From NCBI RefSeq assembly GCF_055900595.2, contig NZ_CM148325.1: a DNA stretch of 64,000 bases. One strand, 5' to 3'. The position numbers were made by a program. This document shows, one piece after another, positions 24,378-27,300 of this stretch (the first letter of the stretch is position 1; each line of letters opens with the position of its first letter).

Positions 24378-27300
24378 TAATAGGCGGTATTCTGTGCACG
24401 CTGTTCATGCCGGATGCGGCGTGAACGCCTTATCCGGCCTACGGTTAAGTGCAGTTTTGTAGGCCTGATAAGACGCGCCAGCGTCGCATCAGGCAATCTA
24501 ACACCTGTCATCACCCCGCAAACTGCCTGAACAGCGCCTTCCCTTTTACCAGTCGCGCGCCCAGCCAGCCGCCGCAAAGCGACAGCAGCAGCGCACCGCT
24601 GCACGGTAGCACAATCCACAATCGCCAGTCTGGCTCCCACGGGAAATCAAACACTTTCGCCTGCAACACTGCCAGTGCCGTTTCCGCACCAATTGCGGCC
24701 ACCAGGCCGGATACAAACCCGAGCATGGCGAACTCACACCACAATGTCGTGCGCAGCAGTTTTTTGCCCGCACCGAGAGTGCGCCACACCACCAGCTCCT
24801 GATGACGCTGACGCATTCCCACCTGCACCTGTGCCAGCAACAGCAACATACCGCAGGCGGTGACCAGCACCACCATCACTTCCAGCGCCCGGCTTACCTG
24901 CTCCAGCACCTGACTGACCTGTTTTAAAATCGCGCCAATGTCTAACAGGCTAATGGTAGGGAACTGGCGGTTGAGTTGCGTCAACATGCCGTTGCCATTC
25001 TCCCAGCGGAAACTGGTAAGCCAGCTCTGCGGTTGCCCGTCTAATGCCCCTTCAGGGAAAATAAAATAGAAATTAGGCCGCAGACTTTCCCAGTCCACTT
25101 TGCGCAGGCTGGTCACTTTAGCGCGGAACTCCTGGGTATCGCCCATAAAAGTCACGGTATCACCGAGGGCAACGTTTAAGCGTTTCGCCAGCCCCTCTTC
25201 CATCGACACTTCATCGGCTTTTGGCGGCCAGTTACCGGCGACAATCGGATTATGATCGGGCCGCGTATTTTGCCAGGTAAGATTGAGTTCGCGATTGAGC
25301 GCCTCATCTTCATTGCCTTCTGTCGGCTTATCGTTAATCGCCGTCAACCGCGCCCGCACTACCGGATAAAACGATTCCGGGACTATTTGATGTTCCGCGA
25401 GGAACGCTTTTAGCGGCGTAACCTGTTCTGTGGCGATGTTGATTAAAAAGTAGTTCGGGCTTTCTGGCGGTAGCTGCTGTTGCCAGCGGTCGAGCAGATC
25501 GCCACGCAACACCAGCAACAGTGCCAGCAGCATAAAGGAGAGCGAAAATGCCGAAAGCTGGCTTAACGTTGACCACGGCTGACGTAACAGGCGGCTGACC
25601 GCCAGACGCAGAGGTAGCGATTTTAGCGTCAGGCGGCGAAGTACATTCAGCAGCATCCAGCCCAGCACACCGCACAGCAAAGCCAGCACTACCGCGCCCG
25701 CCAGCACTGCCCAGAGCAGCATACTGCCGCCCATCAGTCCGGCGAGCAACAGCACAACCACCACAGTGACAATAGGCAGATAAAACTTCAGCGGCCAGAC
25801 GTTCGCGACCACATCATTACGCAATACGCGTAAAGGCTGCGTTGCCAACAACAAGCGGTACGGTCGTAGCCCCACCAGCAGCGAGATGACTGTCATGGTG
25901 CCCAGCGCCCACAGCCACGGCCAGAGGCTGGCTGGCGGTAATGCAGCAGGCAGAACGGGCTTGAGCAGCACCATCAACACGTTTTCGAACAACAGGCCTA
26001 TCGCCCCGCCGGTAACGGCTGAAAGCGCCAGCACCATCAACCACTGGCCGACGATTAGCTTACGCAATTGCGCTCGCCCTGCTCCCAGCGTTTTGAGGAT
26101 CGCCACCAAGTCGTAGCGACTGCGACAGTAATGATTCATCGCCACCGCGACCGCCGCCACCGCCAGCAGCAAGGTCAGAAGCGCCGAAAGCAGCAGGAAC
26201 TGTTGCGAGCGTTCCATCGAGCGCCCCAGCGCGCCTTCGTCCTGTTCCAGACCGTACCAGCGTTGTTCTGGTTTAAGCTGTGGTAACAGCCATTTCTCAT
26301 AGCCGTCGAGCTGGTTCTCGTTGCCGCCGAATTTATAGCGCCAGGTGACCCGACTCCCCGGCTGCACGGCTCCGGTTTTATCGACATCCGCCAGATTCAT
26401 CATCAGACGCGGAGCCATCTGGAAGGGGTTAAAACCGGAATCCGGTTCCTGAATCACTTCTCCGGCAATCCGCAAGGTGGCATCGCCCACGTCAATGGTG
26501 TCGCCCGTTTTCAGGTTAAGCAGTGCCATCAGGCGTGGGGCCAGCAATACGCTGCCCGCCTGCGGTTTCAGGCCAGGGGGATTGGTTTGCAGATCGCCAT
26601 ACATCGGGTAGATATCATCCACCGCTTTAACATTCGCCAGCTGCGGTGTGTCGCCTGCAAATGTCATGGTGGCGAAAGTCAGCTGCTTGCCGACTTTCAG
26701 GCCGCGCTTTTGCGCTTCCTCCAGCCACGCTTGCGGCACTTCGCGCGAACTGCGCAACGCCCGATCGCCCGCCATAAACTCACGGCTCTGCTGGCTTAAG
26801 CCCTTCTCCATGCGATCGCTGATATTGCCCAGCGCCAGCACGCAGGCCACCGCCAGGCTTAGCGCCAGCCAGACAATTAACAGCGACGGCGAGCGCCATT
26901 CGCGCCAGAACCAACGTGCAATCATGCTTCCTCCTGCAACTGCCCGTTAACCAGTCGTAAGCAGCGATCGCAGCGTGCCGCCAGTTGCAGGTCGTGAGTC
27001 ACCATAATCAACGTGGTGCCATGCTCACGGTTGAGGGAAAACAGCAGGTCGGCAATTTTATCGCCCGTCTGGCGGTCAAGATTACCGGTGGGTTCGTCGG
27101 CAAACAGCACATCAGGCCGACCATTAAAAGCTCGCGCCAGCGCCACTCGTTGCTGTTCGCCGCCGGAAAGCTGTGCCGGAAGATGATCAAGACGTTTACC
27201 CAGCCCTAACTGTTCGAGCAACGCTTTCGCCCCATTACGACTTTCCGCGCTACTTTCACCGCGCAGCAGCGCCGGAAGCTCGACGTTTTCCAGCGCGTTA

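What the first reader, a model, noticed from the sequence alone, without database searches (positions are those of the whole stretch)
24381..24510. No Rhs element between selU and ybbP
In E. coli K-12 the rhsD element (rhsD-ybbC-ylbH-ybbD) lies between ybbP and selU as I recall; here the two genes are separated by only about 130 bp containing one REP/BIME. This is a known type of strain variation and suggests a K-12-unlike lineage.
Basis: established knowledge. Interest (0 to 1): 0.2.

Follow-up and report, generated by a model that had tools for sequence, protein, structure and literature searches.

The report
Empty Rhs site between selU and ybbP
In this strain the toxin-carrying rhsD element that K-12 has between ybbP and selU is simply not there; only a 130-bp spacer with one pair of common REP repeats separates the genes, which is an ordinary, already documented strain difference.

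Summary
selU/mnmH (23286-24380, +) and ybbP (24511-26925, -) converge on a 130-bp gap. That gap holds one BIME: a y-type REP, a 16-nt linker and a z2-type REP. In K-12 MG1655 the same two stop codons are 7,301 bp apart, with rhsD-ybbC-ylbH-ybbD-ylbI-ylbG between them. Homology between the window and K-12 stops within 3-5 bp of each stop codon. No trace of the rhsD element exists anywhere in the 64-kb window.

Among 5,426 complete E. coli genomes, 2,859 carry an Rhs gene next to ybbP. Another 574 carry an Hcp-Tle1-like effector island there. About 1,860-1,910 have the two genes within about 1 kb, and 1,315 of those hold a small dinQ-like toxin module. The exact 130-bp junction seen here occurs in only 36 genomes, including SMS-3-5.

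The E. albertii type strain has two BIMEs and no Rhs. The window's form equals that arrangement minus 110 bp, lost between two same-orientation REPs. The empty state is therefore most likely ancestral.

The window's only close relatives are ST485 "Cryptic I" isolates, so it is clearly not K-12-like. Jackson et al. 2009 already list this locus as variably occupied. The finding is ordinary and of low interest.

The parts
23286..24380 (+). selU/mnmH, tRNA 2-selenouridine synthase, 364 aa; its 3' end faces the gap
   Evidence: ORF list. NCBIfam NF008749, 755 bits against a cutoff of 548. 96-97% identical to K-12 selU.
24381..24510 (.). 130-bp convergent intergenic spacer; the unoccupied Rhs position 3 (rhsD site)
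   Evidence: Sequence. Homology to K-12 ends at 24384 and resumes at 24508. Aligns with the spacers of other Rhs-less strains.
24409..24442 (+). y-type REP (ends in CTAC), left half of the BIME
   Evidence: Internal palindrome I3. Exact copies at 2859-2892 and 29996-30029, with 0 expected by chance. Sub-threshold Rfam hit to the REP-derived naRNA4.
24443..24458 (.). 16-nt short linker GGTTAAGTGCAGTTTT between the two REPs; it has no IHF consensus
   Evidence: Read from the sequence. The short linker fits the BIME-2 description in PMC3333891.
24459..24495 (+). z2-type REP (starts with GTAG), right half of the BIME; its 3' end CGCATCAGGCA is the deletion junction relative to the two-BIME form
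   Evidence: Internal palindrome I5. Exact copy at 29946-29981 and a 1-mismatch copy at 33007-33042. Alignment A1.
24511..26925 (-). ybbP, FtsX-like permease of the YbbA/YbbP ABC transporter, 804 aa; its 3' end faces the gap
   Evidence: ORF list. NCBIfam NF041854, 1461.7 bits against a cutoff of 999. 97% identical to K-12.

Best explanation
This is an unoccupied copy of a chromosomal hotspot, the gap between the convergent 3' ends of ybbP and selU. Other E. coli keep interchangeable competition or addiction cargo at this spot. The window's lineage most likely never acquired an Rhs gene here (inferred). Its spacer descends from an ancestral Escherichia spacer made of two BIMEs. It lost 110 bp, namely the end of the z2 REP, the short spacer after it, the second y REP, the IHF-type long linker and most of the z1 REP. 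The loss looks like recombination or slippage between the shared 3' ends (CGCATCAGGCA) of the two same-orientation z REPs (inferred from the alignment). What remains is a single BIME-2-type REP pair. It is expected to do what REP pairs do at the ends of convergent transcription units: form stable 3' hairpins on both mRNAs that slow 3'-exonucleolytic decay and dampen read-through, and possibly bind gyrase. That function is inferred from established REP/BIME biology and was not tested here. In Rhs-bearing strains the whole spacer, BIMEs included, is replaced by the Rhs cassette, with breakpoints 3-5 bp from each stop codon and no target duplication. Gain or loss by homologous recombination in the flanking core genes fits this better than site-specific integration does (inferred).
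For: K-12 has the 7.3-kb rhsD cassette, and homology breaks at 24384 and 24508. No REP lies in the K-12 locus L001, which includes the cassette. The window holds no DNA or protein trace of any known cargo of this site.

The E. albertii type strain has about 245 bp with two BIMEs and no Rhs. E. coli WW2 has the same two-BIME form. Alignment A1 shows the window and SMS-3-5 missing exactly the segment between the two z REP ends, while B2 strain clone D i2 is missing the segment between the two y REPs.

The convergent ybbP-selU pairing is conserved across Enterobacteriaceae, with gaps as small as 23-93 bp. Jackson et al. 2009 infer that position 3 arose late, by duplication of position 6.

Both transcripts of the spacer fold far better than shuffled controls: -58.5 and -53.9 kcal/mol, z -4.8 and -4.2, 0 of 200 shuffles as stable. 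No intrinsic terminator-like site is present, so the REP hairpins are the only obvious 3' structures. REP/BIME roles and the BIME-1/BIME-2 definitions are summarised in PMC3333891.
Against: No phylogeny was built, so 'never occupied' rests on parsimony and one close outgroup. E. fergusonii, E. marmotae and E. ruysiae were not among the loci returned. E. whittamii carries the Hcp-effector island at this site, so cargo here can be old. The same 130-bp junction and the same unusual selU 3'-end haplotype occur in phylogroup-F strain SMS-3-5. That is also what replacement of a former cargo by an imported empty allele would leave behind. The hairpin and mRNA-stability role has no expression data behind it.
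Confidence: 0.72

Rival explanations
1. Secondary loss. An ancestor of this lineage carried cargo at the site (an Rhs, the Hcp-effector island or the dinQ-like module). Homologous recombination in ybbP and selU later replaced it with an imported empty allele, leaving no scar.
For: The window (cryptic clade I) and SMS-3-5 (phylogroup F) share the same 130-bp junction. They also share a distinctive selU 3'-end haplotype (GGGTGAAGTCGCGGTAATAGGCGG) that the other four spacer forms aligned lack. Their wider flanks are only 96.7% identical. Only 36 of 5,426 genomes have this junction. Cargo turnover at the site is evident elsewhere: the 58-bp form (L007) fuses the BIME-side flank to the hairpin of the Hcp-island side, and MOD1-EC7003 keeps only immunity-gene remnants.
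Against: No remnant of any cargo is present in the window. The spacer is fully explained by a 110-bp deletion from the outgroup's two-BIME form. The 200-bp bins next to the junction are no more similar to SMS-3-5 (96.5-97.0%) than the rest of the region, so no clear import tract is visible.
Confidence: 0.22
2. Assembly artefact. A repeated Rhs element was collapsed or skipped during assembly, so the adjacency is not real.
For: Rhs genes are multi-copy repeats that break short-read assemblies. One outgroup contig (L012) ends 1.2 kb past ybbP.
Against: Eight independently sequenced complete genomes align to the 4.6-kb allS-ybbP region without a break at about 100% identity. Six of them appear in the table of Illumina plus Nanopore hybrid assemblies in PMC13064198. 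The spacer also aligns base for base with the empty sites of SMS-3-5, clone D i2 and E. albertii.
Confidence: 0.01
3. The 130-bp spacer encodes something of its own, a small RNA or a small protein, rather than being a plain REP spacer.
For: The RNA structure is strong on both strands. Rfam gives weak hits to naRNA4, a REP-derived RNA.
Against: The Rfam hits score 34-39 bits against a gathering score of 59.5 and only reflect the REP sequence. No promoter-like site occurs in 24200-24700. The ORFs crossing the gap are antisense run-ons into selU or ybbP. The structure is that of two generic REPs found unchanged at other places in the window.
Confidence: 0.03

Closest known systems
Rhs position 3 / rhsD locus of E. 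coli (Jackson et al. 2009, BMC Genomics 10:584; Hill and co-workers' RhsD element)
   Same: It is the same chromosomal site, bounded by ybbA-ybbP on one side and ybbB (selU) on the other. The published survey already records strains with and without a gene at this position.
   Different: The window has the empty allele: no RHS-repeat ORF, no immunity gene, no orphan tips and no ylbG fragment.
BIME-2-type REP pair (y + z2 with a short linker; Bachellier/Gilson classification as summarised in Ton-Hoang et al. 2012, PMC3333891)
   Same: One y REP and one z2 REP lie in inverted orientation with a 16-nt linker, at the 3' ends of transcription units.
   Different: It is a single unit here, whereas BIME-2 typically occurs as tandem copies. 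It appears to be the remnant of a mixed BIME-2 plus BIME-1 pair still present in E. albertii and E. coli WW2.
Empty-site alleles of the same locus in other Escherichia (SMS-3-5, clone D i2, WW2, E. albertii NBRC 107761)
   Same: SMS-3-5 has the same 130-bp spacer with one substitution inside it, plus one each in the adjacent selU and ybbP ends. All these alleles share the left flank, the y REP and the right flank.
   Different: Clone D i2 keeps the long-linker BIME-1 instead (140 bp). WW2 and E. albertii keep both BIMEs (about 240 bp). Strain N1 has a 58-bp form with no REP.
Alternative cargo at the same site: the Hcp-Tle1-like effector with DUF2931 genes (ST131, E. whittamii), and the dinQ-like type I toxin module
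   Same: They sit at the same insertion point between the two stop codons and are mutually exclusive with Rhs in the genomes inspected.
   Different: Neither is present in the window.

Membership tests
Rhs element (rhsD-type, Clade I Rhs at position 3) | Large ORF with RHS/YD repeats and the conserved core end, lying between ybbP and selU | tested here: not met
   The gap is 130 bp. blastn of the K-12 rhsD cassette and tblastn of RhsD against the whole window give no hit. K-12 RhsD itself shows RHS_repeat, RHS and DUF6531 domains.
Rhs element (rhsD-type, Clade I Rhs at position 3) | Downstream immunity gene and orphan tip fragments (ybbC, ylbH, ybbD) | tested here: not met
   tblastn of YbbC and YlbG against the window gives no hit, and blastn of the whole cassette, which includes ylbH and ybbD, gives none either.
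Rhs element (rhsD-type, Clade I Rhs at position 3) | Chromosomal position flanked by ybbA/ybbP and ybbB (selU) | tested here: met
   The flanking genes were identified by NCBIfam equivalogs. The position is defined in PMC2935791 Table 3. The site is the right one; it is empty.
BIME-2-type REP pair | One y REP and one z2 REP in inverted orientation | tested here: met
   y REP at 24409-24442 and z2 REP at 24459-24495; each is an imperfect palindrome, and the two are mutually complementary (I2, I4). Exact copies occur elsewhere in the window. The y/z2 assignment rests on the longer z stem compared with the z1 REP of clone D i2 and on the definitions.
BIME-2-type REP pair | Short linker between the REPs, without the IHF-binding L motif | tested here: met
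   The 16-nt linker GGTTAAGTGCAGTTTT has no WATCAANNNNTTR match (read). The long linker of WW2 and L003 contains AATCAATATATTG, a full match (read).
BIME-2-type REP pair | Occurs as multiple tandem copies | tested here: not met
   Only one pair is present in the gap.
BIME-1 (RIP/RIB element) | y + z1 REPs separated by the conserved long L linker with an IHF site | tested here: not met
   Absent from the window. Present at the orthologous site in clone D i2, WW2 and E. albertii.
REP/BIME as mRNA 3'-end stabiliser or transcription attenuator | Transcripts end at, or are protected by, the REP hairpins | not testable with these tools
   Only predicted folding is available, together with the lack of an intrinsic terminator-like site.
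dinQ-like type I toxin module | 27-aa hydrophobic toxin ORF in a module of about 570 bp next to selU | tested here: not met
   tblastn of the L003 peptide against the window gives no hit. The 130-bp gap has no room for the module.
Hcp-fused T6SS effector island | Hcp domain fused to a Tle1-like domain, followed by DUF2931 genes | tested here: not met
   tblastn against the window gives no hit.

The most novel reading that the evidence does not exclude
The most novel reading not excluded concerns the ybbP-selU gap as a long-lived, multi-cargo hotspot where empty alleles are themselves exchanged between deep lineages. On this reading, the rare 130-bp allele shared by cryptic clade I (ST485-like) and phylogroup F (36 of 5,426 genomes) spread by homologous recombination and erased earlier cargo. 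That would make 'loss by allelic replacement' a measurable process at a toxin hotspot. The site's alternative cargo, such as the dinQ-like toxin module present in 1,315 genomes, may not have been described at this locus, but none of that cargo lies in the window.
Probability: 0.2. Interest if true: 0.25.

Novelty: already known. Interest (0 to 1): 0.08.

Why it matters
It matters little by itself. Presence or absence of Rhs elements at fixed chromosomal positions has been known since the work of Hill and colleagues on the ECOR collection (as summarised in PMC2935791) and was catalogued genome-wide in 2009. The check is useful mainly as a lineage marker and as context. It shows that the window comes from a deep-branching, cryptic clade I type of E. 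coli. It also shows that this strain lacks one polymorphic-toxin cassette that K-12, O157 and many commensals carry. Finally, it shows that the ybbP-selU gap takes at least seven forms across the species.

Tried and rejected
1. Remnants of the rhsD cassette or of other cargo (RhsD, YbbC, YlbG, Hcp-Tle1, DUF2931, the dinQ-like peptide) were sought anywhere in the window. None were found.

2. REP sequences were sought in the K-12 locus L001, which includes the cassette, to see whether the BIME had merely been displaced. None were found.

3. A rise in divergence toward the junction would hint at an imported allele. The 200-bp bins next to the gap are no different from the rest.

4. Rfam was searched for a small RNA. 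Only sub-threshold, REP-derived naRNA4 hits appeared.

5. A promoter and terminator scan of 24200-24700 found nothing.

6. A paper search for 'Rhs elements' + ECOR + 'population structure' (Hill's 1995 paper) returned nothing in the library. Jackson et al. 2009 was used instead.

7. A search for papers naming both rhsD and ybbP returned only incidental mentions.

8. The outgroup scan returned 80 loci but not E. fergusonii, E. marmotae or E. ruysiae, so the ancestral state rests mainly on E. albertii.

Full report
**What is in the window**

The ORF at 23286-24380 (+) encodes a 364-aa protein. It matches the NCBIfam equivalog for tRNA 2-selenouridine synthase MnmH/SelU over its full length (755 bits; cutoff 548). 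The ORF at 24511-26925 (-) encodes an 804-aa protein that matches the YbbP equivalog (1461.7 bits; cutoff 999). allS precedes selU, and ybbA and tesA follow ybbP. The two genes converge, and the gap between them, 24381-24510, is exactly 130 bp.

The gap contains a y-type REP (24409-24442, ending in CTAC), a 16-nt linker (24443-24458) and a z2-type REP (24459-24495, beginning with GTAG). Each REP is an imperfect palindrome, and the two are complementary to each other. Each also recurs exactly elsewhere in the window, where none is expected by chance.

**Comparison with K-12**

In MG1655 the annotated order is ybbP, rhsD, ybbC, ylbH, ybbD, ylbI, ylbG, selU, with 7,301 bp between the two stop codons. 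blastn of the window against K-12 aligns up to 24384 and resumes at 24508, which is 3-5 bp beyond each stop codon. Flank identity is about 96.9%. The window's spacer and the K-12 cassette share nothing, and the K-12 locus L001, cassette included, contains no REP. Neither the cassette DNA nor RhsD, YbbC or YlbG has any match anywhere in the 64-kb window. K-12 RhsD carries the expected RHS-repeat domains, and YbbC is an NTF2-fold immunity protein.

**How common the Rhs-less state is**

Junction-specific queries were run against 5,426 complete E. coli genomes.

| Form at the ybbP-selU site | Genomes |
|---|---|
| Rhs gene next to ybbP | 2,859 |
| Hcp-fused effector next to ybbP | 574 |
| selU and ybbP within about 1 kb | 1,860-1,910 |
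| of which: dinQ-like type I toxin module beside selU | 1,315 |
| Exact junction of the window (z2 REP joined to the ybbP-side flank) | 36 |

These classes account for about 98% of the genomes. The last class includes the window's own lineage and SMS-3-5-like strains. So lacking an Rhs here is common, at about 47% of genomes. The clean 130-bp form is rare. The collection is biased toward clinical lineages, and the counts are of genomes, not independent events.

**Forms of the gap**

Sequences read from representative genomes show the following forms:
- The rhsD-type cassette (K-12, O157).
- An island with an Hcp-Tle1-like effector of 667 aa plus three DUF2931 genes (ST131; domains). This island rewrites the last four codons of selU.
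- A 711-bp form with the dinQ-like toxin plus a BIME, and a 604-bp derivative of it.
- A 240-bp form with two BIMEs (WW2).
- A 140-bp form with a long-linker BIME (clone D i2, a B2 strain).
- The 130-bp form of the window and SMS-3-5.
- A 58-bp form with no REP (strain N1). Its ybbP-side half is the hairpin that flanks the Hcp island, so it is a deletion scar of that island.

**Ancestral state**

A scan of one genome per species returned 80 loci. Across Enterobacteriaceae, selU lies convergent to and downstream of ybbP in most genera. The gap is 23 bp in Atlantibacter and 49-93 bp in Trabulsiella and Buttiauxella. It is about 1.4 kb in Enterobacter, where it holds one 381-aa ORF, which I take to be an outer-membrane porin. 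It is about 4.1 kb in Citrobacter, where it holds a homologous 377-aa ORF plus three ORFs that look like a MetQ/MetN/MetI-type ABC transporter. Those ORF identities are my reading of the translations, not a family search.

The E. albertii type strain has about 245 bp made of two BIMEs and no Rhs. This is the same arrangement as E. coli WW2. In alignment A1 the window and SMS-3-5 lack exactly the 110 bp between the shared 3' ends (CGCATCAGGCA) of the two same-orientation z REPs. Clone D i2 lacks the segment between the two y REPs.

The 130-bp and 140-bp forms are therefore two alternative REP-to-REP deletions of a two-BIME ancestor. Ton-Hoang et al. note that BIME number at a locus varies between strains, and they define BIME-1 (y + z1, long L linker, IHF site) and BIME-2 (y + z2, short linker). 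By those definitions the window keeps the BIME-2-type unit and has lost the IHF-type unit. The long linker in WW2 and L003 reads AATCAATATATTG, a full match to the IHF consensus, whereas the window's linker has none (read).

Jackson et al. 2009 list this locus as position 3 of 11 Rhs positions. They infer that it arose after the split from a group of pathogenic strains that lack the Clade I rhs expansion, by duplication of position 6. Together these points make "never occupied" the most economical reading. It remains an inference: no tree was built, E. whittamii carries the Hcp island at this site, and the 130-bp allele is shared between two distant lineages.

**Lineage**

Only 8 of the 5,426 genomes are at least 99% identical to the window at purK-ppiB; all others are 95-98.6%. 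The same 8 are about 100% identical across allS-ybbP. Five of them (100117, 200086, 400634, 500002, 600003) are listed as "Cryptic I" or "Cryptic", ST485, OND:H45 in PMC13064198.

**Likely function of what remains**

Both transcripts of the spacer fold far more stably than shuffled controls: -58.5 and -53.9 kcal/mol, z -4.8 and -4.2. There is no intrinsic terminator-like site and no promoter-like site. Rfam gives only sub-threshold hits to the REP-derived naRNA4.

By established REP/BIME biology (mRNA 3'-end protection, transcription attenuation, gyrase binding; summarised), the pair most likely serves as the 3' hairpins of the two convergent mRNAs. This was not tested. From my own recollection, REPs lying within about 15 nt of a stop codon have been reported to affect translation termination. 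The z2 REP begins 15 nt after the ybbP stop, which is borderline, and I did not verify that claim.

**Verdict**

The feature is an already documented presence/absence polymorphism and is of low interest. The window differs from K-12 in larger ways elsewhere, listed under things noticed in passing.

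Noticed in passing
window 37245-61333: A segment of about 24 kb, absent from K-12, lies between cueR and ybaT. 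It holds a HlyD-type adaptor (37245-38420, -), an ABC exporter (38417-40579, -), a giant 6,325-aa ORF (40583-59560, -) and a TolC-like OEP protein (59669-61024, -). This looks like a type I secretion system with a giant secreted protein. O157:H7 has the HlyD and ABC genes at the same place.
   Followed up: partly
window 33011-36835: A 3.8-kb segment, absent from K-12, lies between ybbJ and cueR. It holds a 338-aa protein with a YadA-like anchor (33845-34861, +) and a 407-aa ORF (35617-36840, +) with no Pfam match. O157:H7 has a YadA-family adhesin at the same position.
   Followed up: partly
window 2857-3268: A tandem REP/BIME array in the spacer corresponding to K-12 ybcF-purK is about 235 bp longer than in K-12. 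Its repeats match a K-12 BIME cluster elsewhere (508588-508819) at 82-85%.
   Followed up: no
window 29928-30052: The cnoX-fetB spacer holds a z2 REP (29946-29981) and a y REP (29996-30029) identical to those of the finding. K-12 has only 53 bp here.
   Followed up: no
window 11422-11441: The spacer corresponding to K-12 glxK-allE is 20 bp here, against 119 bp in K-12.
   Followed up: no
whole window: The window belongs to a rare deep lineage. Only 8 of 5,426 complete E. coli genomes are at least 99% identical at purK-ppiB. Five of those are published as 'Cryptic I' or 'Cryptic', ST485, OND:H45, eatA-positive GEMS isolates.
   Followed up: yes
L003 2392-2475 (E. coli EC147566), same ybbP-selU site: A module of about 570 bp encodes a 27-aa hydrophobic peptide, MKTFLDKVLIVLKALIALLELIRQFIE, annotated as DinQ-type type I toxin. 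It occupies the site in 1,315 of 5,426 genomes. A 604-bp variant (L005) has the toxin region deleted. The peptide has no Pfam match.
   Followed up: partly
L009 9780-14002 (ST131) and L052 11413-14996 (E. whittamii): An Hcp domain fused to a Tle1-like phospholipase domain (666-667 aa), followed by 2-3 DUF2931 genes, occupies the site in 574 E. coli genomes. E. whittamii has it at about 91% DNA identity. The island replaces the last four codons of selU, giving a 368-aa SelU.
   Followed up: partly
L007 1982-2039 (E. coli N1): A 58-bp spacer with no REP. Its left half is the BIME-side flank and its right half is the hairpin that borders the Hcp island next to ybbP, so it is a deletion scar of that island.
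   Followed up: partly
L022 11410-15545 (Citrobacter braakii), L045 11407-12845 (Enterobacter cloacae): In other genera the same ybbP-selU gap holds a 377-381-aa ORF that looks like an outer-membrane porin. In Citrobacter it also holds three ORFs that look like a MetQ/MetN/MetI-type ABC transporter. These identities are my reading of the ORF translations; no family search was run.
   Followed up: no
window 24399-24424 and 24511-24536: A 26-nt inverted repeat, 81% complementary, links the left flank and start of the y REP with the last codons of ybbP (CGCTGTTCA...TGAACAGCG). It may be chance.
   Followed up: no
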